IMG/VR virus record: IMGVR_UViG_3300028888_000051
Coordinates: 163,384-227,383 of that record
Reading direction: 5' to 3' (one strand)
From: a virus
Lineage: Duplodnaviria; Heunggongvirae; Uroviricota; Caudoviricetes
Length of the DNA stretch: 64,000 bases
This document shows, one piece after another, positions 2,438 through 61,030 of the stretch (position 1 is its first letter; the number at the start of each line of letters is the position of its first letter). A program made the position numbers and the translations under genes. The notes below the pieces were generated by a model. The model searched no databases and had not been told where the DNA came from. It saw nothing but the letters and a program-made list of their open reading frames with translations.

Positions 2438-2445
2438 TATAGAAT
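2438..2445 (-). promoter_or_regulatory. GTTCTA-type box (ATTCTATA on minus strand) upstream of 2036..2410
   Basis: Member of the recurrent TTCTA(T/A)A intergenic motif, about 30 nt from the start codon; coordinates by eye. Confidence 0.35.
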
Positions 2446-2587
2446 ATAAGTTTTAATAAAAAAGTAAATAATAATTTTTCCAAAGTTAAGAAATCGCCTA
2501 ACTACAAAGAATTTAGCTCGGCTAATCTTAGCTATACATTTTTTATTTTTAACAAAACAAAAAATATAATATAATAATATATAATTA

Positions 2588-2740: not shown

Positions 2741-3298
2741 ATGCAAATTTATGGTAATCCTAATTTATCTGATAAATTTTTTGTTTATTTAGAAGATAAT
2801 AGTATTAATTATGTAAGAGATTTTGAAACAGCTAAGGGTTATATTCAAAATCCAAATTATAAAAAATGGTTTGGAAAAACTTTATATTGTACAAATGAAG
2901 ATATAGTAAAAGCTTATGATGGTAAATTGTACTTAAAAAGCAAAGTTCCAGAAAATCCAAATGAAATAAAAATATATGATAATAAATCTTTTTTTATTAA
3001 TAATTGTAAAAAATATATTGAAAATACATTAAATGATTTGAGTATTGAATATGGTTATGTATCTTTTTATCAATTAATATCTTGGAAAGATTCAAAAATA
3101 TTAAAAAACAAACAATTAGCTGAAAAAATGTTAAATTATCGTGATAAATTATATAATTTCTATTCAAAAATATACAATAAACATAAAAAACAACTAGAAA
3201 ATACATCAGAATTATTAGATTTATCAAATATTTACACAGAATTTTTAGAAAATATTCCAAAATTTAAAAAAGTTAAAGAAAATGAAACAAACAATTAG
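2741..3298 (+). CDS. hypothetical protein (185 aa)
   Basis: ORF with strong AAAGGAGA RBS; overlaps the next gene by 17 nt. Confidence 0.55.
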   Translation: MQIYGNPNLSDKFFVYLEDNSINYVRDFETAKGYIQNPNYKKWFGKTLYCTNEDIVKAYDGKLYLKSKVPENPNEIKIYDNKSFFINNCKKYIENTLNDLSIEYGYVSFYQLISWKDSKILKNKQLAEKMLNYRDKLYNFYSKIYNKHKKQLENTSELLDLSNIYTEFLENIPKFKKVKENETNN

Positions 3299-4184
3299 AT
3301 TATATATAATACCTACTTATAAAAATCCTTATGTAGATGAATATTATCTATTTGATCAAAATAATAAAAATACACTAGATGTAGTATGGTTAGATAATGC
3401 TTTAATTGAATTAAAAAATAATTATAATATTTTACAAACAGAAATTTGTGGGGGAGAAATAACAGTATTATCTGATTTTTATTTTAATATTTTGTTTCAA
3501 TTAATAAAAATGAATTGTAATAAAATTATTGTATCTACAAATTTTATAGATTTTAATAAATCTATAATAAATCTTTGTGATATAATTAATGTAAAATATA
3601 ATTTTAATGGTTATAGTAAATATAAAACTATTGTTTATAACAATATAAAGGCAGCAATAGCTGAAAATAAAATTATTAATTTAAAATCACTAGATATATC
3701 TTGTAAAAACAATCATAAATTAATTATTGAAGACTTAAATAGATTAAAAATAAAATCTTGGGAAATTATTCCATATCATCAATCTATTTATTCAAAAGCT
3801 ATTCCATTAAATTATACTGAATATGAAGAATTAATAAGAAAATATTTATTTTCAGCAAAAGATATGAAGTTTGCTTTTCAAAATAAACTTCAATTAGATG
3901 AAATCTTACCAATAGATAACTATAATATTAAAAATATTTATATTACACCGAATAATAAATTTGCCATAACAGAATTTAACAAAAACAATAAATTTAAATT
4001 CGTTGAATATGATAATTTATCTAATTTACAGAAAAAAATAGAAGAAATGGAAAATTTACGTGATAATTTTTGTTATAATTGTGATTCTAAATTACGATGT
4101 CTAGCAAATAGATTAATAAATTTAAATTATACTGGTAAAAGTTGTAGTGGTTTTAAAGATTTAATAAAATATTATAACAAATAA
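3282..4184 (+). CDS. radical-SAM-like paralogue lacking the Cys triad (possible pseudo-enzyme)
   Basis: GGE motif (EICGGEIT) and the following STNF segment sit at the same distance from the N-terminus as in the four rSAM paralogues at 21.7-25.5 kb. CxxxCxxC is replaced by YKNPYVDE. Cys-rich C-terminus CYNCDSKLRC..SC. Confidence 0.35.
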   Translation: MKQTIRLYIIPTYKNPYVDEYYLFDQNNKNTLDVVWLDNALIELKNNYNILQTEICGGEITVLSDFYFNILFQLIKMNCNKIIVSTNFIDFNKSIINLCDIINVKYNFNGYSKYKTIVYNNIKAAIAENKIINLKSLDISCKNNHKLIIEDLNRLKIKSWEIIPYHQSIYSKAIPLNYTEYEELIRKYLFSAKDMKFAFQNKLQLDEILPIDNYNIKNIYITPNNKFAITEFNKNNKFKFVEYDNLSNLQKKIEEMENLRDNFCYNCDSKLRCLANRLINLNYTGKSCSGFKDLIKYYNK

Positions 4185-5115: not shown

Positions 5116-5160
5116 TTGGAAATTTAAATAATATTTTTTGTTTATTTTAAGACTTCTATA
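5116..5160 (+). promoter_or_regulatory. bipartite TTGGAAA-N31-TTCTATA element upstream of the Rad50-like gene
   Basis: TGGAAA at 5117 and TTCTATA at 5154, the same 37-nt offset as at 8102/8139 and 20250/20287. Confidence 0.4.
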
Positions 5161-5195: not shown

Positions 5196-7061
5196 ATGAA
5201 ATTTAATATACGCCGGATAGAAATTGAAAATTTTAGAAGTATACAATCTAAGGTTACAATTAATATTAAACCTGGTCTATATTCTATTGAAGGTATAAAT
5301 AATGATGAAAAAACCAGTACGAATGGAGCGGGAAAATCTTCATTAATTTCAGCTTTATATTGGTGTTTAACTGGCAATGCTTTAACAAATGAAGCATTAG
5401 CCGATGATGTCATAAACGCTAAGGTTGGTAAGAATTGTAAAGTAAGTGTTTTTATTGAATCATTACAAGGTGATATAAAAATCACTAGGACAAGAGGAGA
5501 TTCTGAATTTGGTAATAATTTATTTCTTGAAATAGCAGATCAAGATTTAACTTGTCATAAAGTTGCGGATACTCAAACAAGAATTAATCAATTGTTTAAG
5601 ATTCCGTTTGATTTATTACATAGTACTATCATGATGACTCACGACATTAAGTCTGCTTTTTCTGAACTTACTCCACAACAACGTGTACAAACTTTAGAAA
5701 GTATACGTGATTATTCTATTTGGGATAAAGTTAGAGATGAAGCAAATAAAGATATCAAAATATATAACAAAGAAATACAGGAGCTTAATTTGAAATTAAG
5801 TAACATGAATGGTAGTAAGCAAACATATGAAAAAATGATTGCTGCTGCGGGAGAAAACTATAAAGTAGTTGTTAAATCTTTTGATAAAATCGAAATTGAT
5901 AATAAAATTAATAGTCTAATAGAAGAAAATAAAAACTATGCTATTGAAATAGCAAATTTAGAATCTGATATTAAGGAATTTAATAATTTTATTGAAAAAA
6001 ATACAGATAATTCTTTACAAAAAAGACTTAATGAGATTACTGATACTGCTAGCAATATTAAACTTTCACTTCAGAGTGCGGAATACGAACGGAAAGAGAA
6101 AGTAAAGGATATTGATATTATCAATGCTTGGTTTAAAAATGATAAATGTCCTACCTGCGGTCATTTATTGGATAGAACAGAAGAAGAAAAAGCTGTAAAA
6201 TCTAGCCATCGTGATGAATTAAATAAACAGCTCAATCTAATTGATGAAAAAGTAAAAAAATTAAATAATGATATTGCTTTAAAGCGAGAAGAGTGGGCAC
6301 AAGTAAATACTCAATTGAAGGTTAGTGAAAAAACTTTAACAGATTTTAGAGCTAAATTGAGTGAAAGTAATAATAAGATAAATATTCTTAAGAGTAAAGA
6401 GCTTGCAAATACGCGAGAGTTAGCTAAGCTTGAGTTAGAAAAAAATACTCACTCTTCTCAAGTAGATAAGTTAGACAAAGATATTATCTCTTATAAAAAA
6501 GAAATAGAGTCAATCTCAGCTGGCGAAGCTATCATCAATGAACAACTTAAGTTACTTGAAAATAAAAAAGAGTTATCTGATTACTTTTTTAAGTTACTTG
6601 GTAGTAAAGGTGAGTTAAGGCCTTATCTTTTAAAACAAGATATTTGTTATTTAAATAACTGTATGCAAACATATATACATCAATTTTTTGAAAATACTGA
6701 AGTTGAATTACGTTTAGAAGGTCCAAATATAGAGATTTTAATAAATAGTAATGGTATTAAGAAAAAAGTAACAAGCTTATCGGGTGGTGAAAAAAAGCGC
6801 CTTAATATTGCTATTCAACTTGGTCTATATGATTTAATACAAGCTACTTCACAAGTATGTTTTAATGTACTTTGGTTAGATGAAATTGAATCAGAATTAG
6901 ATCAAGCAGGTGTAAATCAATTAATTAATATAATTGAAGATAAATCTAATGATGCTGAAACTGTATTTTGGATTACAAATCATCCAAACGTTAAGGAAAG
7001 TATTACAAATAAAATTATATGTACTAAATCTTTAGGTGTAACAACTATTGAGGAGAGATAA
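5196..7061 (+). CDS. Rad50/SbcC-type recombination ATPase (T4 gp46-like)
   Basis: Walker A NGAGKSS; long coiled coil with central zinc hook CPTCGH; ABC signature LSGGEKKR; Walker B LWLDEIE. Confidence 0.9.
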   Translation: MKFNIRRIEIENFRSIQSKVTINIKPGLYSIEGINNDEKTSTNGAGKSSLISALYWCLTGNALTNEALADDVINAKVGKNCKVSVFIESLQGDIKITRTRGDSEFGNNLFLEIADQDLTCHKVADTQTRINQLFKIPFDLLHSTIMMTHDIKSAFSELTPQQRVQTLESIRDYSIWDKVRDEANKDIKIYNKEIQELNLKLSNMNGSKQTYEKMIAAAGENYKVVVKSFDKIEIDNKINSLIEENKNYAIEIANLESDIKEFNNFIEKNTDNSLQKRLNEITDTASNIKLSLQSAEYERKEKVKDIDIINAWFKNDKCPTCGHLLDRTEEEKAVKSSHRDELNKQLNLIDEKVKKLNNDIALKREEWAQVNTQLKVSEKTLTDFRAKLSESNNKINILKSKELANTRELAKLELEKNTHSSQVDKLDKDIISYKKEIESISAGEAIINEQLKLLENKKELSDYFFKLLGSKGELRPYLLKQDICYLNNCMQTYIHQFFENTEVELRLEGPNIEILINSNGIKKKVTSLSGGEKKRLNIAIQLGLYDLIQATSQVCFNVLWLDEIESELDQAGVNQLINIIEDKSNDAETVFWITNHPNVKESITNKIICTKSLGVTTIEER

Positions 7062-7064
7062 TTA

Positions 7065-8099
7065 ATGAAAATAATGGTTTTTGGAGATATACATTTTCAT
7101 AATTCACATCGTTTTTCAAATATTGAACCTCAAGGATATACAACTAGAGAAATTGAACAATATAATTGTGCAAATACATTAATTAAAATAGCCAAAGAAG
7201 AAAATATTGATAAAGTTGTATTTTTAGGTGATGCTTGGCAAGCTGTTGGAGATACAATTTCTGCTGAAACGCAATCAATTATGATTGAATTTTTTGCTCA
7301 ATTGAGAAGATATTTACCAAATTTAGCAGTAATTCTTGGTAATCATGATTTAATTAATAATGATCCAACTATAAATAAACTTAATTTTCTTAAATATATG
7401 CCTCCAATTGAATTTTTTTCAAAACCTGAGGTAAAAAATGAGTTTGTTTATATGCCTTATTGTTTAAATGACGATGAAGCTATTCGTTTTTTAGAAAATA
7501 TTTCAGAAAAACAAAATAAAATAGTTTTTTCACATTTAGAATTAGGAGGAATAAATTTGGGTAATGGTATTTTTACTCAAAAAGGCGTTCCATTAGATTT
7601 ACTTAAACAATTTAAAATGACTTTACAAGGACACTATCATTCAGGTGGAAGTTATGGTCATAAAATTCAAATAGCTGGTTCTACACAAAGGCTTTCTTTT
7701 AAAGATAAAGGTATTTCACGTAATAATATTATTATTTATAATACTGATACTGATAAAATTATTAGAAAAAGTTTTGAAAGTCCAGATTGGTTAGTATTTG
7801 ATGATGATAACATAGAGAATATTCTTAAAATAGACAATAATAATTACGTTAAGGTTGATTTAACCAGTGATATTTTATTAACATCTGAAATAAAAACTAA
7901 ATTAGAACAAGTAAAAAATAAAACAGTACATATAGATTTAACACGTATATCTATAAATAAACAAATTACAGAAGAAATATCAGAAAAAGAAGATAATTTA
8001 GATGTAATAAGAAAATTTATTATTAAATCTAATAATACAGATGATAAAAAAGAACAATTAATACAAGAAGGAGTAAGATTATTAAATAAAATTAGTTAA
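7065..8099 (+). CDS. Mre11/SbcD-type nuclease (T4 gp47-like)
   Basis: Calcineurin-like phosphoesterase motifs GDIH, LGDAW, GNHD, SHLE, GHYH; directly follows the Rad50-like gene. Confidence 0.9.
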   Translation: MKIMVFGDIHFHNSHRFSNIEPQGYTTREIEQYNCANTLIKIAKEENIDKVVFLGDAWQAVGDTISAETQSIMIEFFAQLRRYLPNLAVILGNHDLINNDPTINKLNFLKYMPPIEFFSKPEVKNEFVYMPYCLNDDEAIRFLENISEKQNKIVFSHLELGGINLGNGIFTQKGVPLDLLKQFKMTLQGHYHSGGSYGHKIQIAGSTQRLSFKDKGISRNNIIIYNTDTDKIIRKSFESPDWLVFDDDNIENILKIDNNNYVKVDLTSDILLTSEIKTKLEQVKNKTVHIDLTRISINKQITEEISEKEDNLDVIRKFIIKSNNTDDKKEQLIQEGVRLLNKIS

Positions 8100-8100: not shown

Positions 8101-8145
8101 TTGGAAAATTTATTTAAATATTTTATGGATTATTTAACTTCTATA
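8101..8145 (+). promoter_or_regulatory. bipartite TTGGAAAA-N31-TTCTATA element upstream of the gp32-like gene
   Basis: Same spacing and sequence classes as 5116..5160. Confidence 0.4.
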
Positions 8146-8202
8146 AAATGTAAAGTTTAATTTTTTGAATATAAACATGTTTATTTAAAAGGAAAATGTA
8201 AA

Positions 8203-9027
8203 ATGGAAAAAAGTTATAATGAAGAATGGATGAAAGATATTTTAAGTAGGAGTAAAGAAGCAATGGATGATTCATCTGGTTCATATCCTTCAACTGAATG
8301 GGTACAATATAAAAAAGGTTTCAAAAAGAGTATTACTTTTAAATTGATGCCTGCAAATAGTAAAGAAAACAATGTTTTTAGTCATATAGTTGCTCAACAT
8401 TGGATTCAAACATCAGATGGTAAAACAAAAAGATTCGTTTGTCCAGAAGAAACTGTACATTTGAAAGGTCAACATGTAAAATGCCCAGTTTGTGAAGCTA
8501 AACGTAAATTAAAAGCATTAGGTTTTACTGATGAGCAATTGAGTGTTGAAGGTAAATTTGGTTTAGTACCTGTATTTGATCCTAAATTTACTTCTAATGC
8601 AAAAGTTGTAGTTCTTCAGTCTGATGAAAAACAAGATTGGGATAGAGCTCATATTTCTGTATTACAACAGAATGGTACTTTCATGACTGTTTGGTTAGCT
8701 CAAAAATATGCTAGTAACGAAATTCCTAATTTTACTGAATTAGCATCTAGTAATCCTATTAAATTTTCTCGTCCAACAGATTCAGGTAAATGGGAACGTG
8801 AATTTAGTTTTAATGTATTTAATCCTTCTAGTGATGTTTTAGCAAAATTAAAAGAAGAAAATGAAGCATTAACTTTACCTGATTTGTGGAAAATGCCTTC
8901 AGATCAAGAGTTTATTGAAATTAGTCAATTGATGGAAGATATGCAAAAAAATTATCTTGCTGCTAGAGATACAATGACTAATACTTCTACTGATACTTCT
9001 ACTGTAGAGGATGACATTCCATTCTAA
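8203..9027 (+). CDS. gp32-like single-stranded DNA-binding protein with bacterial-SSB-like DDIPF C-terminal tip
   Basis: Collinear with T4 gp32 by eye (ITFKLMPANSKEN..; zinc site H..C..CPVCEA). Acidic Thr/Ser/Asp tail ends in VEDDIPF. Confidence 0.8.
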   Translation: MEKSYNEEWMKDILSRSKEAMDDSSGSYPSTEWVQYKKGFKKSITFKLMPANSKENNVFSHIVAQHWIQTSDGKTKRFVCPEETVHLKGQHVKCPVCEAKRKLKALGFTDEQLSVEGKFGLVPVFDPKFTSNAKVVVLQSDEKQDWDRAHISVLQQNGTFMTVWLAQKYASNEIPNFTELASSNPIKFSRPTDSGKWEREFSFNVFNPSSDVLAKLKEENEALTLPDLWKMPSDQEFIEISQLMEDMQKNYLAARDTMTNTSTDTSTVEDDIPF

Positions 9028-9100: not shown

Positions 9101-9538
9101 ATGTTAAAAAAAGTACCTTTAAAAAATAAAAATAATCAATTGAAAAAAACACCTTTAAAATCTAATTCAAAAGGATTAAAGGTGAATTCTTTTTTAAAGA
9201 AAAATAAGGAAACAACACTTAATAATAATTCAGAATTAAATAAACAAAACGAAAAAGCAAAAAAGAAATGGGAAAAGGTTCGCAATCAAGTATTAGAACG
9301 AGATAATTATAAATGTGTGGTTTGTGGAAAACCTGCAACTCAAGTACATCATATTCATCTTAGAAGTAAACGTAAAGATTTATTATATGAAATGAATAAT
9401 TTAATAAGTTTATGTGATAGACATCATTTTCATAAAAGTAATGAAAAATATGAAGAACAAAATGAAGTTATTGCTAAAGCTAAACATATAACTATTGAAG
9501 AATTGTTAAAATTTGCAGAAACAAGAAGTGAGGAATAA
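9101..9538 (+). CDS. free-standing HNH endonuclease
   Basis: CVVCGKPATQVHHIHLRS...NNLISLCDRHH = CxxC + HNH core; basic Lys/Asn-rich N-terminus. Confidence 0.8.
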   Translation: MLKKVPLKNKNNQLKKTPLKSNSKGLKVNSFLKKNKETTLNNNSELNKQNEKAKKKWEKVRNQVLERDNYKCVVCGKPATQVHHIHLRSKRKDLLYEMNNLISLCDRHHFHKSNEKYEEQNEVIAKAKHITIEELLKFAETRSEE

Positions 9539-10408: not shown

Positions 10409-10516
10409 GATTATTTACTATTTGGAAATTTAATTTCTCAATGATTTTACAAATTAAAGTTTTTAAATTAATTTATTATTCATAAGTGTATTTTAATAAA
10501 AAGGGAATTATCATAG

Positions 10517-11551
10517 ATGCTAAATGGAATTAAAAAAGCTAAAATTTCTAAGCGCACAAATAGAAAGCAAAATTTTAAAAAGTTTATAGAATCTAATTAT
10601 ACTGATATTCAAGCTTTTTTAAATGCATGTCATAATGATGAAGATTTGCTTATTTATACATGTCTTAAGCCAAATGAATTACAAGAAATTATTGAAAAAA
10701 TTAAACCATTAAAAACATTAGAAGAAAAGATAGATTATTTAGTTAATAATCAGCCAATTATGAATTCTGATCCAGAACGATTTGATAGATGTGTACAATC
10801 ACTTGTAATGTATCTTAAAGGATATATTGAATATAATGGATATAAATTAGCTAATTCTAATGGTAATTATGAAGACCAGGCAGCTGAATTTTATCTTAAA
10901 TATGTAAAAATTTGTAATTTTTATCGTACTCGTTGGTTTTATCCAGAAACATTAAAAAAAGCATCAACTGTACAATATAATCCAATGCTTTATAAAGAGT
11001 TTTTATATATTATAAGACTTTCTATTTCTGGTGATAGAAAGCATAAAGCTTTTTTAGCAACACAAGATGAAAATGCTTCAATTTTTAAATTATCACTTGA
11101 TTCTAAGATAGATGATGGTAAAGGTGAAAAAAGATTAGGAGATGTTGTTCCAGATACACAGCATAGTATTGAATATACTCAAAATATAACAGAAGTGAAT
11201 AATATTTTAACAAAAGCATTAAGATTAATTAAAGAATATCCAGATGCTGTAAAAAACTATAGTAAAATAAAAGAGTTTTACGAAAAACAAGATCCAATAG
11301 GATTTGATAAAAAAACAGTATTACTCGGAAAAATATTTTTATATAAAGCTGGTTTAGTCAGTCCAAAAATTTTACAATTTATAAAATCATTATCTTCAAC
11401 ATATAAATTAAGATATAATATTTCACAAGCACGTATTAATGCACAGATTCAAGAACAAAAGAAGATAATGACAGGAAAACCAATAAAAAAAGTAAAGACT
11501 GAAGATTTGACTTATAAAGAATTAATTTTTAAGAAAAGAGGAGAGCTATAA
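10517..11551 (+). CDS. hypothetical protein with sigma-70-like features (candidate phage sigma factor)
   Basis: YEDQAAEFYLKYVKICNFY resembles region 2.1/2.2. FKLSLDSKIDDGKGEKRLGDVVPD resembles the SLD..(acidic)..LGD..D linker before region 4. By-eye match only. Confidence 0.35.
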   Translation: MLNGIKKAKISKRTNRKQNFKKFIESNYTDIQAFLNACHNDEDLLIYTCLKPNELQEIIEKIKPLKTLEEKIDYLVNNQPIMNSDPERFDRCVQSLVMYLKGYIEYNGYKLANSNGNYEDQAAEFYLKYVKICNFYRTRWFYPETLKKASTVQYNPMLYKEFLYIIRLSISGDRKHKAFLATQDENASIFKLSLDSKIDDGKGEKRLGDVVPDTQHSIEYTQNITEVNNILTKALRLIKEYPDAVKNYSKIKEFYEKQDPIGFDKKTVLLGKIFLYKAGLVSPKILQFIKSLSSTYKLRYNISQARINAQIQEQKKIMTGKPIKKVKTEDLTYKELIFKKRGEL

Positions 11552-11552: not shown

Positions 11553-12092
11553 ATGACTAAAGTAAATATGATTGTTGCTATTGGTCCAGATAATATAATT
11601 GGATATAGTAATAAATTAGCTTGGCATTCAAAAAAAGATCTTGAGCATTTTAAAAATATAACTTTAAATAGACCAGTAATATTTGGAACAACAACTTTTT
11701 TTGGTTTACCTAAATATCCATTACCAAATAGATTAAATATTGTATTAGATAATAGTGAATATAAAGTATTTAATATCAATGCCATAAATGATAATAAAGG
11801 TGGTTGGATTGAAGCAACTTCAGTTGAAAGTGCCTTAGAATTTTGTAAAAATTTTGATAATATATTTATTTGTGGAGGAGCATCTATTTATAAATATTGT
11901 TTAGAAAAAAATTTAATAGATTGTGCATATATAACAAAAGTGAATTGTAAATTAGAAAATAGAGATGATTATATAAAATTTCCATTTGATATTAATAGAT
12001 ATTTAAATTATGAAAAATGGGATGCTAAATTAGAAGAAACAGTTTTTGATGAAGAAATTCAATTAGAATTCTGGAAATATATTAAAAAATAA
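11553..12092 (+). CDS. folA: dihydrofolate reductase
   Basis: MIVAIGPDNIIGYSNKLAWHSKKDLEHFKNIT, IFGTTTF and ICGGASIYKY match DHFR signature regions. Confidence 0.85.
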   Translation: MTKVNMIVAIGPDNIIGYSNKLAWHSKKDLEHFKNITLNRPVIFGTTTFFGLPKYPLPNRLNIVLDNSEYKVFNINAINDNKGGWIEATSVESALEFCKNFDNIFICGGASIYKYCLEKNLIDCAYITKVNCKLENRDDYIKFPFDINRYLNYEKWDAKLEETVFDEEIQLEFWKYIKK

Positions 12093-15567: not shown

Positions 15568-15586
15568 AAGTTCTATAAAATAAATA
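15568..15586 (+). promoter_or_regulatory. AAGTTCTATAAAATAAATA box upstream of the prohead protease gene
   Basis: GTTCTA box fused to a TATAAATA-like string; about 45 nt upstream of ATG 15627. Confidence 0.45.
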
Positions 15587-15626: not shown

Positions 15627-18611
15627 ATGTCAGAAAAACAATTACTTATCGAATCTTCTGATTTTAATCTTACTTGTAATTTATCAGAAAAAGACAGAGA
15701 AAATTTAACTGAATCTTTAAAAATTTCTGCAGGTAAACATGGTAATTTGATTGTCAAAAATATTCCATGTACAATACTTGATAGACGTAATCAAAATGGA
15801 CGTATATATCCTACAGCTTTAATGCAAAAAGCAATTAATGAAGCTATGCCAAAAATGAAAGCTAAAATGTTAGTGTGTTCTGCTTCTGAGCATCCTTCTG
15901 GAAGTTTTTGTGAACCAGCTAATATTTCACACGCTGTTATTAATGCATATATAAAAAATGTTGAAATTGAAGTTGAAGGTAAAAAAGAAAGACATAATGT
16001 ACTTTTTAATGATTGGGAAGTATTAAATGAAAAAAGTCAAGTTGCAGCTCATGTTCAGCAATTAATTTTATCTGGATTTGGTATAGGTACATCTATTCGT
16101 TCACTAGGTTCTTGTGATCCAGATGGTACAGTAACAGAATTAGAATATTTAGGAACTGATATTGTAGGACAACCTTCATCTTCTACTTATGTTAATATGC
16201 CAATTAATGAATCAGTAGAAGTAACAACAATTCCTTTAACAGAAACTTATGTTGTATCAGCTTCTGCTACAAATGTTGTAAGAGATTTAGATTCTGCATT
16301 AGCATTATCTCAACAAATTGATTCTGCTAATTTTGGTACTGTAAAAAAGACTTCTACAAAACTTGATTCTGAGGTTGATCCTAAAACGGGTGCAGAAACA
16401 ACAATGGTTACATTAGAAACTGAAACAGAAGATGAAGTATCAGAATTAGATCAAGCATTAATGATGGCTAAACAAGCCATGTTAAATGGAAAAGCTGATA
16501 TTGATTCTGTTACAATAGAAAATATTAAAGAAGAACAACCAAAAGAATCTGTTGAAAACAAAGATGATGAAAAAGCATTAAATGAAGAGAATAAAATAAC
16601 AGAAAATCATTTTGCTCCTTTACCTCATATTACTTCAATTACAAATCATATTTTATTGAATTATCCAAAAGAAAGCGAAGCTTATAAAGTAGCTTTACAT
16701 ATTCAAAATGATTTAATTACTAATAGATTAAAAGATAGACAAGCAGCTTTAGAAGAATTAAAAAAATATGTAGATATAACTAAAGACGAATATGTACCTG
16801 AATCTGTTATGAATGAAGTAGGTGTTGATAAGTTAATGGATGAAATTCGTAACATTATGTATAATGAAGGTTTGTCTCTTGAACAGGCTTGTCGTAAATA
16901 TTGTGAACATCATGAAAATATTCCATATGAATATGTATTGGAATATATGAGAACAAATCCAGTTACTGAATCAATTACAGAAGCTAAAGAAGAAAAGCAA
17001 GAAGATCCAAATGAAGGTAAGCAATATGTTTTGAAAACTTCTCAGGGTTTTGTTGCTATGGATGGTAATGCTATTTCATTTGTAGATAATCCTAAAGAAG
17101 CTATTCATTTTATTAAGGGTAAAGAAGAATCAGGAGTTGTTCATTTATCTGGAATTAATAAAATTCTTGAAACAATGGGTATATATGATGTACAAAAATA
17201 TTTTAAAAAAGGTACAACAGATATTTCCGCACCAAATGATATAAATATACAAAATGCCAAAAATGCAGGCATCGAAGTTAAAGAGTGTGGTAATATAGAT
17301 ATGCCAATGACTGAAGATAATGGCTCAAATACACGTTTTAAAGCTACTGTAAAAATTACTGATGAAAATGGAGAGTCTTCTGAAGATATTCCTGTTTCAG
17401 CAATTGATATGGAAGGTATTAATGCTGAAATTTCTAATCTTTATGATATGAAAAAACAAAAAGGTAATCCAGTTATCACTGTTACAGATACTACTTCTGG
17501 TCAACAATTTACATATAATCCAGAGTCTCGTCAAATTGAATTAATGAATATACAAACTGAAGCGAGTGGTGATTTAGAGCAAGATGGAAATAAACTTTCT
17601 ATGGAAATTGATGATAACAATAAAGTAGAAAAAGAATTTAATTCACCGGTACAAGCCGCAGTTGCAAAAGCAGGTATTGAAGCAGGCAAACTTGGTGGTG
17701 ATGTTCTTTTGAGTGAAGATGATGAAGATTCAGATACAGCTAAATGTGCATGGTGTGGTGAAGAATTTGAAAAATCTGCATTACGTAAAGAGAAAGATTT
17801 AGGTTATCTTTGTAACACTTGTGCAAAAGGAATTCAATCAAGAGAAGGTTCATTAACATTTGAAGAAGATTTAGCAAATGATCCACATATTTATAATCAA
17901 GGAAAAGATGAAATAGATAATGGTCAAGAACCTAATATGAATAAAATTGCGGATTCTATTCGCTATATTGCTAAAAAAACTGATTGCTCACTAAAAGATG
18001 CAATGGATATCTATGAAAAGATTACAGGTTTTAAATTTGATGAAAAAGATTCTATTTCAGAAGAAGTTCATAGACCAAATTATGAAGATATAGAACCAGG
18101 ATGGTATGCAGGAGCTCAAAATATTGGTGTTACTGGACCTTATGAATCAAAAGAAACATTGCTTGCAGATTTAGGTGAAGTAGCAGATAAAATTGATATT
18201 GAATATATTTCACCAGAAGATTTAGGGCTTGCTGCTGAATCATCTAAAATAGATGAAGTATTATATAATAAACCTAGTAAGGCTTCTGATCCATTAATTA
18301 AAACACCATTAGAAGAAGATGATGATGAATCTCCAGCGGTAAATATTTTATTTAAAAATATTGATTGGAATACTAAAGACTTTATGAATTCTATGATGGC
18401 TAATATGGAAAATGATGATCCTGTTAATATAGAAGATATAAAGTCAAAAGTAAAAGATTTACCAGATGAAGCAACTATTACTGTTAAAGTTAATGAAATA
18501 CCTTTATCTGATGATAGTTTACTTGAAAAATTTTTATTTGATAAACTTGGTAAAAAGTATGCCATGAAAGTAAATAATGCAGAAATGGCAAATATAAGTT
18601 GGGCAGTATAA
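15627..18611 (+). CDS. T4 gp21-like prohead core protease fused to a roughly 800-aa acidic extension
   Basis: N-terminus aligns by eye with T4 gp21 (MSEKQLLIES; NQNGRIYP; SASEHP; GTSIRSLGS). The remainder is Glu/Asp-rich with an internal CAWCG..CNTC zinc ribbon. Confidence 0.75.
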   Translation: MSEKQLLIESSDFNLTCNLSEKDRENLTESLKISAGKHGNLIVKNIPCTILDRRNQNGRIYPTALMQKAINEAMPKMKAKMLVCSASEHPSGSFCEPANISHAVINAYIKNVEIEVEGKKERHNVLFNDWEVLNEKSQVAAHVQQLILSGFGIGTSIRSLGSCDPDGTVTELEYLGTDIVGQPSSSTYVNMPINESVEVTTIPLTETYVVSASATNVVRDLDSALALSQQIDSANFGTVKKTSTKLDSEVDPKTGAETTMVTLETETEDEVSELDQALMMAKQAMLNGKADIDSVTIENIKEEQPKESVENKDDEKALNEENKITENHFAPLPHITSITNHILLNYPKESEAYKVALHIQNDLITNRLKDRQAALEELKKYVDITKDEYVPESVMNEVGVDKLMDEIRNIMYNEGLSLEQACRKYCEHHENIPYEYVLEYMRTNPVTESITEAKEEKQEDPNEGKQYVLKTSQGFVAMDGNAISFVDNPKEAIHFIKGKEESGVVHLSGINKILETMGIYDVQKYFKKGTTDISAPNDINIQNAKNAGIEVKECGNIDMPMTEDNGSNTRFKATVKITDENGESSEDIPVSAIDMEGINAEISNLYDMKKQKGNPVITVTDTTSGQQFTYNPESRQIELMNIQTEASGDLEQDGNKLSMEIDDNNKVEKEFNSPVQAAVAKAGIEAGKLGGDVLLSEDDEDSDTAKCAWCGEEFEKSALRKEKDLGYLCNTCAKGIQSREGSLTFEEDLANDPHIYNQGKDEIDNGQEPNMNKIADSIRYIAKKTDCSLKDAMDIYEKITGFKFDEKDSISEEVHRPNYEDIEPGWYAGAQNIGVTGPYESKETLLADLGEVADKIDIEYISPEDLGLAAESSKIDEVLYNKPSKASDPLIKTPLEEDDDESPAVNILFKNIDWNTKDFMNSMMANMENDDPVNIEDIKSKVKDLPDEATITVKVNEIPLSDDSLLEKFLFDKLGKKYAMKVNNAEMANISWAV

Positions 18612-18672: not shown

Positions 18673-19386
18673 ATGACAAAAGAAGAATTTTTACGTCTTT
18701 TAAGTGAATCTGAAGTTAAAAATGCTGAAGATACGCTTTCTAATATTGAAACAAAAGAAGTTAAAGATGTTGAGCCTGCTGAAGGTATTAAAGGTTTAGA
18801 TTCTGAATTACCTACACAGAAAGATATCGAAAAAGAAGTAGCAAAAGATGAGGGTCCGGTTGTTCCAGCTGATAAAGATGGTGTTTCTAAAAACGGTGGT
18901 GAATGTGACTGTTTAGAAGCTGGTAAAATTGAAGCAGAACGCAAAAAAGAAGATAATAGCATGAAAGATGTTATTAACGTTTCTAGTCGTAAAGTTGAAG
19001 AAAATAGTGAAGTAAGTAATGAATTGTTAGCTCAACTGAAAGAAGCTGCTGCTCGTGAAGAAGCTATGAAAAATCAAATTACTGAAATGAAAAAACTTTG
19101 TGAAGAAGCTTTATTAGCTCAAGAAGCAGACTTAGTAAAGACTCACGCAAAAGAAATGAAAAAAGTATTTGAAGCAGTAATTGCTGAAGGCGAAAAATTT
19201 GAAAAAACTTTAACTGAATCTTCTGCTAAAAATGAAAAATTATATAAGAAAGCTCAAAAGATGTATGAAAGCTCTGCAAAATTAAATAAAATTTTGTTAG
19301 AAGCAGTAAAGAAATCTCAACCTGAACAAAAAATGGTTCGTTATCAATCTGCTACTGCAAGAGCTATGGCTTCTTTGCGTAAGTAA
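18673..19386 (+). CDS. prohead scaffold-like protein (gp22-like, 237 aa)
   Basis: Highly charged Glu/Lys/Ala-rich predicted coiled coil directly after the prohead protease gene. Confidence 0.55.
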   Translation: MTKEEFLRLLSESEVKNAEDTLSNIETKEVKDVEPAEGIKGLDSELPTQKDIEKEVAKDEGPVVPADKDGVSKNGGECDCLEAGKIEAERKKEDNSMKDVINVSSRKVEENSEVSNELLAQLKEAAAREEAMKNQITEMKKLCEEALLAQEADLVKTHAKEMKKVFEAVIAEGEKFEKTLTESSAKNEKLYKKAQKMYESSAKLNKILLEAVKKSQPEQKMVRYQSATARAMASLRK

Positions 19387-20249: not shown

Positions 20250-20294
20250 TGGAAAAATTTTGAGCTATTTTTTTAAAATATATAAATTCTAATA
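20250..20294 (+). promoter_or_regulatory. bipartite TGGAAAAA-N31-TTCTAAT element
   Basis: Same 37-nt offset as at 5117/5154 and 8102/8139. Confidence 0.35.
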
Positions 20295-20336: not shown

Positions 20337-20813
20337 ATGGCGAATAGATTTATACCAGATGATTATGATCATAATTTAGAAAACGAACTATTTGATGAAG
20401 AATGGTACACTAAAGTTTCTAATGCTATAAATTATACTTTTGACATATTAGAAAATAATAATAAAAGAATTGTTATCAATAAAGAAACTATTGCAAAAGC
20501 TATTATTGATTATAATATAGAAAAAAAACTCAGTGAAAATATTGATAATTTACCAATTCCTACTTTATTAGATTGGTCTAAAGCAAATAGTGTACAAATA
20601 TTTGATGAATTTGCTTCTATAGTATGTCTTTGTAATAAAAATGATAAATTTAAAAGACATGTTGTTAAAATAATATGTAATAATAATAAATCAGCTATCG
20701 AACAATTTAAATTTTGGGAAAAAGTTAATAATGAAGAAAAAAATAATACAATAATTTTAGATAAAATTCAAAAAAATAATACAATAATTTGTATTATCAA
20801 AAGAAGGACTTAA
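20337..20813 (+). CDS. hypothetical protein (158 aa)
   Basis: ORF downstream of the bipartite element. Confidence 0.5.
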   Translation: MANRFIPDDYDHNLENELFDEEWYTKVSNAINYTFDILENNNKRIVINKETIAKAIIDYNIEKKLSENIDNLPIPTLLDWSKANSVQIFDEFASIVCLCNKNDKFKRHVVKIICNNNKSAIEQFKFWEKVNNEEKNNTIILDKIQKNNTIICIIKRRT

Positions 20814-20818
20814 ATTTT

Positions 20819-21715
20819 ATGTCAAATGAATTAGTATTAAATTCAGAATGGACGCCTTTTTTAATAGAAAACAGAGCTTCTATTACATTTGATAAATTTT
20901 TAGATTTAATTAAACAATTAGATAACAATAGTTCACCAAATTTATGGACAAAATGGAAAAATTATGCTAATCAAGTAGTTATAGAAACACCAAATTACTA
21001 TTTTAAGTTATATGAAGATGATTATTTATGTGGTTCATTTTGGTCATTAATTCGCTCTACTTTAGGAGAGATATATACAAAATATTTTAATATTTTGTGG
21101 GATGTTAATATTATAAAGCAAAATAGTAAAATATATACACTCGAAAGACGTCAAAAATTAAATGTATGTATACCGAATTCAATTTTATATACTGATTTAC
21201 TTCTTAATTGGTCAAATACACTTAAAAAACTAGAAAATGAACTTTTATTATCAGAAATATGTCAACAACTTAAACCATATATTCCAGAATTAGCAGAACT
21301 TAAGTTGATACGTAATTGTATAAATAAATATGCAGATTATGCTATTACTGAAGATAATAATATTGTACTTTTAGATGATTCCGATTGGTTTATAGCTATG
21401 GTTGATAAAAACGGTAAATGGTTAAATTCAAAATTTAAAGGTTATAATATAATTTCTAGTTTAGGAGAAACAATTTTTGCTCCAGAGGGTTATTTTGATA
21501 AAGGAAATATAACTAAACATGAAGAATTTACAAATAAATGGCAAATTTATATGGAAAATATTAAAACTACAGAAATAGAAGGAATTTTATTTGATCAACG
21601 TGAACAAATGCTCAAAGATAATATATCTTTGATATTTAATCAAAAACTTTTGCCTAATCAAAATATAAAATCTTTTGATTCAGTAGGTGATTTACTTAAA
21701 ATTGGTTTTGAATAA
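20819..21715 (+). CDS. hypothetical protein (298 aa from the internal ATG)
   Basis: Track ORF starts at 20789 inside the upstream gene. ATG at 20819 (MSNELVL) follows the upstream stop and is the more likely start. The 3' end overlaps the convergent rSAM gene by 20 nt. Confidence 0.5.
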   Translation: MSNELVLNSEWTPFLIENRASITFDKFLDLIKQLDNNSSPNLWTKWKNYANQVVIETPNYYFKLYEDDYLCGSFWSLIRSTLGEIYTKYFNILWDVNIIKQNSKIYTLERRQKLNVCIPNSILYTDLLLNWSNTLKKLENELLLSEICQQLKPYIPELAELKLIRNCINKYADYAITEDNNIVLLDDSDWFIAMVDKNGKWLNSKFKGYNIISSLGETIFAPEGYFDKGNITKHEEFTNKWQIYMENIKTTEIEGILFDQREQMLKDNISLIFNQKLLPNQNIKSFDSVGDLLKIGFE

Positions 21716-22742
21716 ATTCTCTATCACAGATAACACATTCATCAGAATCTATATAGGCGCAATAATTTAGTTGATGTCCACATTTAGCTGTAAGAAATTC
21801 TAAGCAATTACCTTCTTTTTCATTTAATTCATTTCGTGTATGTTTATTTCTATGATTTAATTGCATACGATGATTATCATCTGATTCATTGAAATTTCTA
21901 TACAAATCATCTGCACGATAAATTATATTAAAAAGTTTATCATATAAACCTGGGCAATCTTCTTTAAATTTAATTAAAAATTTTAAAAAATCTTCTCTTT
22001 TTGGAAAAAAACCCGGTAATCTTTTTTCCATTAATTGTTTAGCTTCCATGTATTGTTCAATTTTTGATAAGTTTTCATGAATAGGTTTAATTCCACCTGG
22101 AGAAGGTTGTTTAAAAAACATAGAAGTATGATATTTATTCATAAAATCATTAAAAGAAAATTCACCATTCAGATATTTGGTAATTATATCTTGAGTTAAA
22201 ATGGTACAAGTGTTAAAATTTAATGTTGGATATTTTTCATGTAAATTTAACATGTTATTTGACCAATTTTCTTGCATTTTTGGTAAATGAAAACGACCGA
22301 TCGTATCATAAGATGTAACAAGCCATACTTGATTTATTAATTCTGGTTTTCCGGCTTGAATATACATTTTTTTCATAATATCCAAAGAAGTATATAAATC
22401 TTTTTGTGAACCTATTGTAAGGGTACACATAATCCATACTTCACGTATTTTACCTGAAATTTGTAATTCTGCAGTTTTTTGCATAAGATTAAAAAATTTA
22501 TTTTTGACTTCATCTACATCAAGTTGACCTTGAAAAAATTCTCCACCTATATAAGATACTGTGTTATATGGAATCATTTTTTTGTTATCAGATAAAAAAT
22601 TATAAGCATCATCAAGTGCCTTAATTTTTAATTCTGTTGGTGTAAAGCTATTACTGTTTGCATTATAACAAAATACACATTTTTGATTACATTGATGCCA
22701 TAATTCAAACTGTAAACTCTTTTTTTCATTTATATCCATCAT
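21696..22742 (-). CDS. radical SAM enzyme, paralogue D (348 aa)
   Basis: CNQKCVFC (CxxxCxxC) at residues 18-25; YIGGEFF; C-terminal CGHQLNYCAYIDSDECVICD. Confidence 0.8.
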   Translation of the reverse strand: MMDINEKKSLQFELWHQCNQKCVFCYNANSNSFTPTELKIKALDDAYNFLSDNKKMIPYNTVSYIGGEFFQGQLDVDEVKNKFFNLMQKTAELQISGKIREVWIMCTLTIGSQKDLYTSLDIMKKMYIQAGKPELINQVWLVTSYDTIGRFHLPKMQENWSNNMLNLHEKYPTLNFNTCTILTQDIITKYLNGEFSFNDFMNKYHTSMFFKQPSPGGIKPIHENLSKIEQYMEAKQLMEKRLPGFFPKREDFLKFLIKFKEDCPGLYDKLFNIIYRADDLYRNFNESDDNHRMQLNHRNKHTRNELNEKEGNCLEFLTAKCGHQLNYCAYIDSDECVICDREFIQNQF

Positions 22743-23659: not shown

Positions 23660-23660
23660 A

Positions 23661-25474: not shown

Positions 25475-25500
25475 TTTAGAACTGAAATGAGTTCTATATA
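25475..25500. promoter_or_regulatory. divergent pair of GTTCTA boxes (TTTTAGAAC ... GAGTTCTATATA)
   Basis: The minus-strand copy faces the rSAM operon (start 25451). The plus-strand copy lies about 30 nt before ATG 25526. Confidence 0.45.
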
Positions 25501-29280: not shown

Positions 29281-29324
29281 AATAAACACGCATATATAGA
29301 ATTCCTATAATACACGTGTTTATT
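29281..29324 (-). terminator. 10-bp perfect inverted repeat (AATAAACACG/CGTGTTTATT) with U-run on the minus strand; the loop carries an ATTCTATAT box
   Basis: Lies between the end of 29363..30163 and the start of tdk. The loop contains the TTCTATA motif about 35-43 nt from the tdk ATG. Confidence 0.5.
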
Positions 29325-30246: not shown

Positions 30247-30336
30247 TTAAAATTAATGTAAAGCCTTAAGTTAAAAAAACTATATTTTGTAAATAGTTAT
30301 CTAGAAACAAACTCTTATATATTTCTAAATAAAAAT

Positions 30337-37018: not shown

Positions 37019-37034
37019 TTGTATCCCCTTTAAT

Positions 37035-37229
37035 TTATTTATCTTTTTGTGAATAAAGTTTATTTATTATCTTTTTTCTACCATTACTAGTTAAAAATAA
37101 TATTGGTGAAAAAAGAATAATAAGTAATTTTGTTTTTGGTTTAAACATTCGATTAAATTGCATAATAATTATAAATGCCCATATTGTAATAAAATAAGCA
37201 CATAAAATACGTAAAATTAAAATACTCAT
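37035..37229 (-). CDS. small membrane protein (64 aa, two hydrophobic segments)
   Basis: Sits directly upstream of the SPFH gene in the same operon. Confidence 0.5.
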   Translation of the reverse strand: MSILILRILCAYFITIWAFIIIMQFNRMFKPKTKLLIILFSPILFLTSNGRKKIINKLYSQKDK

Positions 37230-59155: not shown

Positions 59156-59200
59156 TGGAAAAATAATTCAGTAGAATATTTTTATTACTTTTATTCTATA
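59156..59200 (+). promoter_or_regulatory. TGGAAAAATAATT ... GTAGAATA hairpin ... TTCTATATAAT element upstream of recA
   Basis: Shares ATAAATGGAAAAATAATT and GTAGAAT with the element at 60971..61034. Weak 7-bp stem TAGAATA/TATTCTA. Confidence 0.4.
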
Positions 59201-60976: not shown

Positions 60977-61030
60977 TGGAAAAATAATTTAAATAATTTA
61001 GTAGAATCCATATAAAGTATGGATTCTATT
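60977..61030 (+). promoter_or_regulatory. TGGAAAAATAATT ... hairpin ... TTCTATTTTTATATTTA element upstream of polB
   Basis: Shares an 18-nt string with 59151..59168. The TTCTA box forms the 3' arm of the hairpin at 61002..61028. Confidence 0.4.

What the first reader, a model, noticed from the sequence alone, without database searches (positions are those of the whole stretch)
5116..5160. TGGAAA-N31-TTCTA bipartite arrangement restricted to replication and recombination genes
Upstream of the Rad50-like gene, the gp32-like gene and 20337..20813, a TGGAAA hexamer sits exactly 37 nt before the TTCTA box (TGGAAA/TTCTA at 5117/5154, 8102/8139 and 20250/20287). The offset is 38 nt upstream of recA (59156/59194). 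It is 47 nt upstream of polB (60977/61024), where a hairpin is inserted. A TTGGAAA without a clear TTCTA partner lies upstream of the sigma-like gene at 10422. Structural genes carry only the TTCTA box. This suggests a second promoter class, middle-like and activator-dependent, analogous in logic to T4 MotA boxes.
Basis: partly seen in the sequence, partly recalled or inferred. Interest (0 to 1): 0.5.

Follow-up and report, generated by a model that had tools for sequence, protein, structure and literature searches.

The report
Upstream TGGAAA box marks phage DNA-metabolism promoters
An uncultured, very AT-rich large phage places a conserved TGGAAA box at a fixed distance upstream of the promoters of its replication, recombination and nucleotide-metabolism genes, which marks them as a separate, probably "middle"-type promoter class; the logic is familiar from phage T4 but the sequence elements are new.

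Summary
TGGAAA-N31/32-TTCTA occurs 5 times in 3.7 kb of intergenic DNA against 0.006 expected. All 7 non-coding TGGAAA copies in the window point at a downstream gene. The arrangement is conserved upstream of orthologous genes in up to 12 other lineages whose proteins are only 50-90% identical.

The architecture is tripartite, not bipartite: TGGAAA, then N9-10 (or N18-19), then a -35-like GTAGAAW, then N16-17, then TTCTAWA. GTAGAAW is degenerate in four window promoters.

The 47-nt offset at polB comes from a 9-nt tandem duplication upstream of GTAGAAT, not from a hairpin insertion. The hairpin fills the normal 17-nt spacer.

An exact match at 4048 is a coding coincidence.

The TTGGAAA at 10422 pairs with a sigma-70-like TTTACA-N17-TAATTT core promoter.

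Structural and other promoters form a separate class (aGTTCTA, no upstream element; Fisher p = 7e-10).

Downstream genes of the TGGAAA/GTAGAA class are Rad50/Mre11, gp32, RecA, PolB and, in relatives, dUTPase-like, SHMT and NrdG-like genes. That is a T4-middle-like regulon.

The activator is unknown, and TGGAAA sits near -50, not at the MotA-box position. I rate it a new variant of a known kind, of moderate interest.

The parts
5117..5122 (+). TGGAAA box of the Rad50/Mre11 (5196-8099) promoter
   Evidence: Conserved in orthologous promoters of L124, L002, L127, L134 and L135.
5154..5158 (+). TTCTA box (presumed extended -10, about -15..-11) of the Rad50 promoter. It is preceded by C, not G. 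The -35-like position (5132-5138, TATTTTT) is degenerate in the window, but is GTAGAAA in L124, L002, L127 and L134.
8102..8107 (+). TGGAAA box of the gp32-like gene (8203-9027) promoter
   Evidence: TGGAAA is present in 9 of 12 other lineages, TGGAAG in 2 and TAGAAA in 1. L138 has TTGACA-N17-TATAGT instead.
8139..8143 (+). TTCTA box of the gp32-like gene promoter (N31 from TGGAAA)
20250..20255 (+). TGGAAA box upstream of ORFs 20337-20813 and 20819-21715 (function unknown; the C-terminal domain of the first has an Smr/Alba-like fold)
   Evidence: (N31 conserved in L128, L129, L131, L132, L133).
20287..20291 (+). TTCTA box of the 20337 promoter
59156..59161 (+). TGGAAA box of the recA (59232-60326) promoter
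59171..59177 (+). GTAGAAT, the -35-like middle element of the recA promoter (N9 after TGGAAA, TAGAA-N17-TTCTA)
   Evidence: The same element sits upstream of recA in L003 and L004, without TGGAAA.
59194..59198 (+). TTCTA box of the recA promoter (TTCTATATAAT)
60977..60982 (+). TGGAAA box of the polB (61066->) promoter
60983..61000 (+). Tandem duplication AATAATTTA x2. It moves TGGAAA 9 nt further upstream (N18 instead of N9 before GTAGAAT).
   Evidence: compare recA and L004 polB.
61001..61028 (+). GTAGAAT, a 17-nt spacer and TTCTA of the polB promoter. The spacer and both boxes form a perfect hairpin (TAGAATCCATA / TATGGATTCTA) followed by TTTTTAT.
   Evidence: RNA fold -15.5 kcal/mol, z = -6.5. 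Five pairs have compensatory changes in L004, and G.U pairs occur on the sense strand only.
2477..2482 (-).
   Evidence: Conserved in L124, L127 and L134.
2440..2444 (-). TTCTA box of the same minus-strand promoter (N32)
10423..10474 (+). TGGAAA (10423-10428), N17, TTTACA (10446-10451), N17, TAATTT (10469-10474). This is a TGGAAA box combined with a sigma-70-like core promoter, upstream of the sigma-like gene.
   Evidence: TGGAAR-N17/18-gacTTTACA is conserved in L124, L002, L127, L134 and L135.
10517..11551 (+). Core gene of the phage clade, possibly a divergent sigma factor and a candidate reader of TTCTA-type promoters
4048..4089 (+). Exact TGGAAA-N31-TTCTA match inside ORF 3282-4184; judged coincidental (protein-coding conservation)
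15570..15575 (+). Example of the contrasting class: aGTTCTA box with no upstream element (head-protease-like gene 15627-18611). Others have their TTCTA at 2716, 12255, 18617, 25481(-), 27923, 30242(-), 48305, 50254, 54387(-), 54466, 55173 and 58858.

Best explanation
TGGAAA is the distal upstream element of a distinct promoter class. That class drives the DNA replication, recombination and nucleotide-metabolism genes of an uncultured clade of AT-rich phages with contigs of about 160-260 kb.

The full promoter reads TGGAAA, N9-10 (or N18-19), GTAGAAW, N16-17, TTCTAWA. TTCTA is most likely an extended -10 element (TTC at -15..-13, TA at -12/-11). GTAGAAW then sits at about -38..-32 and TGGAAA at about -53..-47, or one helical turn further upstream.

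I infer three things:
- TTCTA-type promoters are read by RNA polymerase carrying a phage-specified specificity factor, possibly the conserved 344-aa sigma-like protein.
- The GTAGAAW and TGGAAA modules recruit polymerase earlier or more strongly than the bare aGTTCTA promoters of structural genes.
- TGGAAA is the site of a separate DNA-binding activator, or of the alpha-subunit C-terminal domain of polymerase, and not of sigma. This follows because it also sits upstream of the sigma-70-like promoter of the sigma-like gene itself.

Shown: the motif, its spacing, its conservation, the class separation and the gene-function bias. Inferred: promoter function, positions relative to the transcription start, temporal class, and the identity of the binding factor.
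For: (1) Non-randomness: 5 intergenic TGGAAA-N31/32-TTCTA against 0.006 expected. All 7 non-coding TGGAAA copies are sense-oriented and each has a core promoter partner.

(2) Phylogenetic footprint: TGGAAA and TTCTA are invariant or nearly so in orthologous gp32 promoters of 13 lineages, while the spacer diverges (mean column identity 52%). The same holds for the Rad50, 20337 and 2036 promoters.

(3) Quantised spacing: across the window and 17 loci, the distance from non-coding TGGAAA to TTCTA is 31 (14 times), 32 (10 times) or 40/41 (4 times), and never 33-39. The +9 variants arose independently at window polB, at L127/L135 Rad50 and at the L003 dUTPase-like gene. This fits a face-of-helix constraint on a protein contact.

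(4) Class separation: a non-G base at -1 goes with upstream elements, and aGTTCTA goes without them (Fisher p = 7e-10). In 50 aGTTCTA promoters nothing else is conserved.

(5) Function bias: Rad50/Mre11, gp32-like, RecA and PolB in the window; SHMT, dUTPase-like, NrdG-like and F420-ligase-like genes in relatives.

(6) Register: in promoters that combine the two types, TTTACA lies exactly 17 nt upstream of the TA of TTCTA (window 55153 and 30262; L129 8342).

(7) TGGAAR also precedes the sigma-70-like core promoter of the sigma-like gene in 6 lineages.

(8) Compensation: promoters with a degenerate GTAGAA always keep TGGAAA, and promoters without TGGAAA have a perfect (G)TAGAA.

(9) The sigma-like protein's best fold matches are ECF sigma factors.
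Against: - There are no transcription start sites, RNA-seq data or binding data. Every position relative to +1 is inferred.
- At the sigma-like gene, TGGAAA sits about 6 nt further from the -10 element than in the main class. That is not a whole helical turn, which weakens a strict phasing model.
- Two of the TGGAAA-headed units have unknown function.
- Relatives drive recA, and at least one lineage (L138) drives gp32, without TGGAAA, so the box is not obligatory.
- Orthologous promoters are not independent observations, so the Fisher test and the spacing histogram overstate the effective sample size.
- Only 64 kb of a genome likely to be 160-260 kb was examined.
Confidence: 0.6

Rival explanations
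1. TGGAAA plus its A/T-rich 3' flank is an UP-like element contacted directly by the alpha-subunit C-terminal domains of host RNA polymerase. It only strengthens promoters that need high early output. No dedicated phage activator exists, and the temporal class is no different from other TTCTA promoters.
For: - The inferred location is about -47 to -62, which is the UP-element zone.
- TGGAAA is always followed by an A/T run (TGGAAAATTT or TGGAAAAATAATT).
- It works with two different core promoter types.
- Its spacing is somewhat flexible (N31/32, N41, and about +6 at the sigma-like gene).
- T4 PuvsX also combines a middle promoter with UP elements (PMC2988021).
Against: - UP elements are A/T tracts (from my own knowledge). 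Here the invariant core contains GG, and it is conserved to the base across lineages with about 50% protein identity. That is more typical of a sequence-specific protein site.
- The box is absent from all aGTTCTA promoters and from the other sigma-70-like early promoters.
Confidence: 0.2
2. TGGAAA, TAGAA and TTCTA are operator sites of a repressor or shut-off factor. One form would be a dimer recognising the inverted repeat TAGAA-N17-TTCTA, with an auxiliary TGGAAA site. It would switch DNA-metabolism genes off late in infection rather than activating them.
For: - TAGAA is the exact reverse complement of TTCTA, and the two lie 22 bp apart centre to centre, about two helical turns.
- At polB, and at gp32 in L139, the repeat extends to an 11-bp perfect or near-perfect palindrome.
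Against: - Four of the six window promoters lack TAGAA but keep TGGAAA and TTCTA.
- TTCTA alone, without a partner, is the common element of about 50 other promoters.
- The G.U pairs in the polB stems work only in sense-strand RNA. This argues for an RNA hairpin and against a protein-bound DNA palindrome.
Confidence: 0.1
3. TGGAAA belongs to the 3' end of the upstream transcription unit, as a termination, processing or 3'-end stability signal. It appears linked to TTCTA only because genes are tightly packed.
For: In 6 of 7 cases the box lies 2-27 nt after the stop codon of the upstream gene.
Against: - The minus-strand copy at 2482 has no co-oriented upstream gene.
- The distance to the stop codon varies (2-27 nt), while the distance to TTCTA is fixed at 31/32 or 40/41.
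- No hairpin or T-run accompanies the box.
- The box is absent after most other genes.
Confidence: 0.05
4. The pattern is chance or a compositional artefact of a genome with 25% GC.
For: Short A/T-rich words are frequent. TTCTA occurs 336 times in the window.
Against: Shuffle controls, strict strand orientation and conservation in orthologous promoters of distant relatives all argue against it.
Confidence: 0.01

Closest known systems
Phage T4 middle promoters (MotA box plus sigma-70 -10 element; MotA/AsiA sigma appropriation)
   Same: - A phage-specific upstream element is added to a -10-type element.
- It is used for prereplicative DNA replication, recombination and nucleotide-metabolism genes (uvsX, 32, 43, 46/47 in T4).
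- It coexists with sigma-70-like early promoters and with late promoters that have only a -10 element.
- T4 PuvsX also has upstream (UP) contacts (PMC2988021).
   Different: - The MotA box is (a/t)(a/t)(a/t)TGCTTtA, 12 +/- 1 bp from the -10 element and centred at -30.
- Here the nearer element is GTAGAAW, 20 bp from the presumed -12 TA.
- TGGAAA is 34-35 bp away, or 43-44 bp in the longer variants.
- The -10 region carries a phage-specific TTC extension that is shared with the presumed late class.
- No MotA or AsiA homologue was found among the window proteins scanned.
Phage Mu middle promoter Pm (Mor activator centred at -43.5 plus a partial UP element near -51)
   Same: It is an activator-dependent middle promoter with a poor or absent -35 element and functional DNA between about -40 and -60 (abstracts of PMC4390567 and PMC4287176).
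   Different: - Mor binds a 16-bp dyad.
- TGGAAA is asymmetric and is found at two quantised distances.
- Mu has one such promoter, whereas this clade uses the box as a regulon-wide signal.
Phage-encoded sigma cascades (SPO1 gp28 and gp33/34; phiEco32 and 7-11 gp36; T4 gp55)
   Same: - Phage-specific -35/-10 hexamers replace host ones for middle and late genes. GTAGAAW-N16-17-TTCTA has the two-block geometry of a sigma-dependent promoter.
- A conserved sigma-like gene lies next to the Rad50/Mre11/gp32 genes, as gene 55 lies next to genes 46/47 in T4 (the SPO1 and T4 details are from my own knowledge; phiEco32 and 7-11 from the abstract of PMC8948821).
   Different: - The consensus sequences differ.
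- The sigma assignment of the 344-aa protein rests only on a weak fold match.
- The third, distal TGGAAA module has no counterpart in those systems.
ECF sigma promoters (-35 GGAAC-type, spacer of about 16-17, short -10 element)
   Same: GGAA-containing upstream box, TCTA-containing downstream box, and a 16-17 nt spacer between GTAGAA and TTCTA. The sigma-like protein's best structural matches are ECF sigma factors (the promoter consensus is from my own knowledge).
   Different: The GGAA-containing TGGAAA box is 31-32 nt, not 16-17 nt, from TTCTA. The aGTTCTA class has no -35 element at all.

Membership tests
T4-type MotA-dependent middle promoter | MotA box (a/t)(a/t)(a/t)TGCTTtA, 12 +/- 1 bp upstream of the -10 element and centred at -30 (PMC2988021) | tested here: not met
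   No TGCTT-like box is present. GTAGAAW lies 16-17 nt upstream of TTCTA, and TGGAAA lies 31-32 or 40-41 nt upstream.
T4-type MotA-dependent middle promoter | Good sigma-70 -10 element (TAnnnT) | tested here: inconclusive
   The TA of TTCTA starts TATATT, TATAAA, TAATAT, TATATA, TATTTT and TATATG in the six window promoters. In promoters that combine the two types, it lies exactly 17 nt from a TTTACA -35 hexamer. No transcription start data exist.
T4-type MotA-dependent middle promoter | MotA and AsiA homologues are encoded | tested here: not met
   Pfam and/or PHROGs scans of about 65 of the roughly 80 window ORFs gave no MotA or AsiA family hit. The rest of the genome is outside the window, so absence is not proven.
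T4-type MotA-dependent middle promoter | The regulon consists of prereplicative DNA-metabolism genes | tested here: met
   Rad50/Mre11, gp32-like, RecA and PolB in the window; dUTPase-like, SHMT and NrdG-like genes in relatives.
UP element (alpha C-terminal domain site) | A/T-rich tract between about -40 and -60 without an invariant G/C core | tested here: inconclusive
   The inferred position fits and the 3' flank is A/T-rich. However, the GG of TGGAAA is invariant across lineages. Binding of the alpha C-terminal domain cannot be tested with these tools.
Class I activator-dependent promoter | The activator site is upstream of -35 and functions only at spacings that differ by whole helical turns | tested here: inconclusive
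   The spacing is bimodal, 31/32 against 40/41, with nothing in between. The copy at the sigma-like gene is offset by about 6 nt. The activator is unknown.
Sigma-factor-specific two-block promoter (phage or ECF sigma) | Conserved -35 and -10 blocks separated by 16-18 nt | tested here: met
   (G)TAGAA-N16/17-TTCTA occurs in 22 promoters of the window and relatives. The -35 block is degenerate in 4 of the 6 window promoters.
Sigma-factor-specific two-block promoter (phage or ECF sigma) | A cognate sigma factor is encoded by the phage | tested here: inconclusive
   [not shown]
Sigma-54 promoter | GG at -24 and GC at -12, with TGGCAC-N5-TTGCW spacing | tested here: not met
   No GC element lies 10 nt downstream of the GG. 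The partner is 31-32 nt away.

The most novel reading that the evidence does not exclude
TGGAAA is the binding site of a so far unrecognised phage-encoded activator that acts independently of sigma. From about -50 or about -60 it would switch on both the host-type promoter of the phage's own sigma-like gene and the phage-type (GTAGAA/TTCTA) promoters of the replication and recombination genes. A single box would then couple sigma production to the DNA-metabolism regulon. In addition, some of these promoters (polB; gp32 in L139) have evolved a spacer that folds, in read-through RNA, into a terminator-like hairpin whose stem base is made of the -35-like and -10-like boxes themselves. That would be a promoter-embedded insulator.
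Probability: 0.25. Interest if true: 0.65.

Novelty: new variant of a known kind. Interest (0 to 1): 0.45.

Why it matters
The clade is large: more than 130 protein clusters of its core 344-aa gene, on contigs of about 160-260 kb from rumen and gut metagenomes. It is entirely uncultured, and it has no DNA or core-gene match among 50,697 deposited phage genomes.

A conserved promoter grammar with three classes gives a sequence-only way to predict the temporal programme of these phages. It assigns unknown genes (for example 2036-2410 and 20337-21715) to the DNA-metabolism phase. It also names candidates for the regulators. It further shows that T4-like early/middle/late logic has been rebuilt with unrelated sequence elements in a distant lineage.

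The claims are testable with reporter constructs and in vitro transcription even before a host is isolated.

Tried and rejected
- A DNA pattern scan of IMG/VR for TGGAAA-N8-11-GTAGAA-N16-18-TTCTA returned over 100 loci. tblastn showed that only those from already known relatives share proteins with the window. The rest are chance matches in AT-rich DNA, so the pattern alone is not diagnostic outside the clade.
- The search for related loci with the head-protease-like protein and with the 346-aa protein found no relatives. The polB alignment scan only re-found L003 and L004.
- The generic sigma-70 consensus scan is uninformative at 25% GC: 117 hits against 144 in shuffles.
- Rfam gave no hit in the window.
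- INPHARED gave no DNA match and no match to the sigma-like protein. The PolB and Rad50 proteins match cultured phages at only about 25% identity.
- BFVD fold search of the sigma-like model gave nothing significant. A PDB profile search also gave nothing.
- Full-text literature searches for TGGAAA or GTTCTA as phage promoter elements found no paper using these motifs.
- Sigma-54 (spacing) and CodY-box (no dyad) readings of TGGAAA were considered and rejected. The hairpin-insertion explanation for the polB offset was rejected.
- The 4048 match was considered as an internal promoter and judged a coding coincidence.

Full report
**Context.** The window has 25% GC. It encodes SbcC/Rad50-like and SbcD/Mre11-like proteins, a weak gp32-like SSB, a bacterial-type RecA, a family-B DNA polymerase, DHFR, SHMT, ClpP, a GH19-family endolysin, a tail tube protein and an intein-containing terminase-like protein. 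Many ORFs have no family assignment. The window has no DNA match in INPHARED, and its PolB and Rad50 are only about 25% identical to those of cultured phages. Relatives exist in IMG/VR, JGI, ENA and Logan assemblies on contigs of about 160-260 kb. Two contigs of about 245-250 kb are deposited as 'Bacilli bacterium' MAGs.

**Observation check.** An exact TGGAAA-N31-TTCTA search gives 4 window hits against 0.18 expected. In the 3.7 kb of intergenic DNA, TGGAAA-N31/32-TTCTA occurs 5 times against a shuffle mean of 0.006. The window has only 7 non-coding TGGAAA copies. All are on the sense strand of the downstream gene. Six have TTCTA at N31 (5117, 8102, 20250), N32 (59156 and 2482 on the minus strand) or N41 (60977). 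The seventh (10423) has a TTTACA hexamer at N17.

The fourth exact N31 match, at 4048, lies inside ORF 3282-4184. Relatives conserve it as an E-N-L-R-D-x-x-C-x-x-C-D-S peptide with synonymous changes, so I treat it as coincidental.

**Conservation.** Orthologous promoters were recovered from lineages whose proteins are about 50-90% identical to the window's.
- gp32-like gene: TGGAAA (TGGAAG twice, TAGAAA once) and TTCTA are retained at N30-32 in 12 other lineages, while the spacer diverges. One lineage, L138, has TTGACA-N17-TATAGT instead.
- Rad50: the promoter is retained in L124, L002, L127, L134 and L135.
- 20337 gene: retained in L128, L129, L131, L132 and L133.
- 2036 gene: retained in L124, L127 and L134.
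- Across the window and 17 loci, the distance from non-coding TGGAAA to the next TTCTA is 31 (14 times), 32 (10 times), 40/41 (4 times) and otherwise only singletons.

**True architecture.** Relatives reveal a third element. (G)TAGAA(A/T) lies 16-17 nt upstream of TTCTA and 9-10 nt downstream of TGGAAA. In the window it is intact at recA (59171-59177) and polB (61001-61007). At Rad50, gp32, 20337 and 2036 it is degenerate (TAYTTTT-like).

The 47-nt offset at polB is caused by a tandem duplication, AATAATTTA x2 at 60983-61000, between TGGAAA and GTAGAAT. The hairpin (61002-61028) sits inside the ordinary 17-nt spacer. The same +9 displacement arose independently at Rad50 in L127 and L135 and at the dUTPase-like gene of L003.

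The absence of intermediate spacings suggests, by inference, a face-of-helix constraint. Promoters lacking TGGAAA have a perfect (G)TAGAA. These are recA, SHMT and the NrdG-like gene in L003 and L004, and Rad50 in L137. Promoters with a degenerate middle element always keep TGGAAA. The two modules therefore look partly redundant.

**Promoter classes.** Of 102 intergenic TTCTA(A/T) boxes lying 20-90 nt upstream of a start codon, 33 have TGGAAA and/or TAGAA upstream, and 30 of those 33 have a non-G base at -1. Of the 69 without an upstream element, 50 are preceded by G (Fisher p = 7e-10; orthologues are not independent). In those 50 only aGTTCTA is conserved. In the window this class heads the head-protease-like gene, the tail tube gene, the terminase-like gene, a cluster of four paralogous genes with radical-SAM-type cysteine motifs, and several unknown genes.

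A third class, GGYTTTAC(A/T)-N17-TATAWT, heads the small minus-strand ORFs between 36 and 48 kb and a few other genes. In two window promoters (55153 and 30262) and in L129, TTTACA lies exactly 17 nt from the TA of TTCTA. I therefore place TTCTA at about -15..-11, GTAGAAW at about -38..-32 and TGGAAA at about -53..-47. This is inference; no transcription start data exist.

**Gene functions.** In the window, the class with upstream elements heads:
- Rad50/Mre11;
- the gp32-like gene with an HNH gene and two unknown genes;
- RecA with an unknown gene and a GapR-like DNA-binding protein;
- PolB;
- ORFs 20337-21715;
- ORF 2036-2410.

**Mechanism and rivals.** I think the most likely reading (0.6) is as follows. 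TGGAAA is a distal upstream module of a middle-type promoter class. It is bound by an activator or by the alpha C-terminal domain of polymerase. It cooperates with a -35-like GTAGAAW and an extended -10 TTCTAWA. The four rivals carry these weights:
- a pure UP element, 0.2;
- an operator of a repressor using the TAGAA/TTCTA dyad, 0.1;
- a 3'-end signal of the upstream gene, 0.05;
- chance, 0.01.

**Comparison with known systems.** The logic matches T4 middle promoters. However, the MotA box sequence and position (12 +/- 1 bp from the -10 element, centred at -30; PMC2988021) are not met, and no MotA or AsiA homologue was seen. The position of TGGAAA is closer to that of the Mor site and partial UP element of Mu Pm (abstracts), or to a class I activator site. 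The two-block GTAGAA/TTCTA core resembles promoters of phage-encoded or ECF-type sigma factors. No paper in the library uses these motifs. I rate it a new variant of a known kind.

**The polB hairpin.** TAGAATCCATA-TAAAG-TATGGATTCTA folds at -15.5 kcal/mol (z = -6.5). The L003 and L004 orthologues fold equally well. Five pairs carry compensatory changes, and the G.U pairs are valid only in sense-strand RNA. The hairpin is followed by TTTTTAT. It probably acts as a terminator or attenuator for read-through from the recA operon, while its stem base doubles as the -35-like and -10-like boxes. A similar construction occurs in the gp32 promoter of L139.

Noticed in passing
window 61002-61035 (+); L003 8638-8670; L004 9935-9967: The spacer of the polB promoter, together with both boxes, forms an 11-15 bp hairpin followed by TTTTTAT. 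Five pairs show compensatory changes, and the G.U pairs are valid only in sense RNA. It looks like a terminator or attenuator embedded in a promoter.
   Followed up: partly
window 8144-8202 (+), palindrome AAACATGTTT at 8173-8182; gp32 leaders of L124, L002, L125, L134-L140, L143 and L145: The 5' leader of the gp32-like gene carries a small hairpin in most relatives (for example GACAGAGGATAACTGTC) and a conserved (A)TAAAACA / AAACATGTTTAT motif. This recalls the autoregulatory translational operator of the T4 gene 32 mRNA (the T4 comparison is from my own knowledge).
   Followed up: no
window 29284-29321 (-), upstream of the thymidine-kinase-like gene 28675-29259; L002 about 18950-18995; L129 about 9265-9310: A hairpin AAACACG...CGTGTTT plus a T-run encloses a TTCTA box in its loop. 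The stem is kept in relatives through G.U pairs. It could be a terminator, or a structured 5' end.
   Followed up: no
window 36251-47980 (-), 55150, 57170 and 30257-30265 (-): A third promoter class, GGYTTTAC(A/T)-N17-TATAWT (sigma-70-like), heads the cluster of small ORFs (which includes ClpP and an SPFH/Band7 protein). In two cases it overlaps an aGTTCTA box in exact register (TTTACA-N17-TA).
   Followed up: partly
window 25477-25496: Palindrome TAGAAC-N8-GTTCTA. It forms two back-to-back aGTTCTA boxes for the divergent genes 24585-25451 (-) and about 25526-26029 (+). The plus-strand gene probably starts at the internal ATG that follows AAAGGAG, not at 25487.
   Followed up: no
[not shown]
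   Followed up: partly
window 51207-54344 (-) and 55218-57167 (+): The terminase-large-subunit-like gene is interrupted by an intein with an HNH domain. Nearby lies a 649-aa DUF7487 / homing-endonuclease-like gene. Another HNH gene (9101-9538) sits in the gp32 operon.
   Followed up: no
window 21696-25451 (-), 42944-43648 (-), 41028-42377 (-), 11553-12092 (+): Four paralogous genes of about 300 aa have an N-terminal CxxxCxxC and a C-terminal cysteine cluster (weak radical-SAM hits in relatives). The window also has a QueC-like gene, SHMT and DHFR. Together these hint at a DNA base hypermodification pathway.
   Followed up: no
window 60708-60965 (+): A GapR-like DNA-binding protein (PF10073, E = 2e-23) is encoded in the recA operon immediately upstream of polB.
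   Followed up: no
window 26157-26816 (+): The ORF ends in a long serine/cysteine run (SSSCCSSSCSSSSSSSSSSSSSSSS). The start of the ORF is uncertain.
   Followed up: no
L143 (JAZNQD010000009.1, 249 kb), L145 (JAFZWP010000001.1, 245 kb), L144 (JBJFGR010000069.1): Contigs that are evidently genomes or fragments of this phage clade are deposited as bacterial MAG contigs ('Bacilli bacterium', 'Succinivibrionaceae bacterium'). The Bacilli label may hint at the host, or may simply be a binning artefact.
   Followed up: no
L138 7381-7452 and L138 1368-1500: In the most GC-rich relative (32% GC), gp32 is preceded by a consensus TTGACA-N17-TATAGT instead of the TGGAAA/TTCTA promoter. A TGGAAA-N31-TTCTA arrangement there precedes ClpP. 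Promoter class assignment of orthologous genes therefore shifts within the clade.
   Followed up: no
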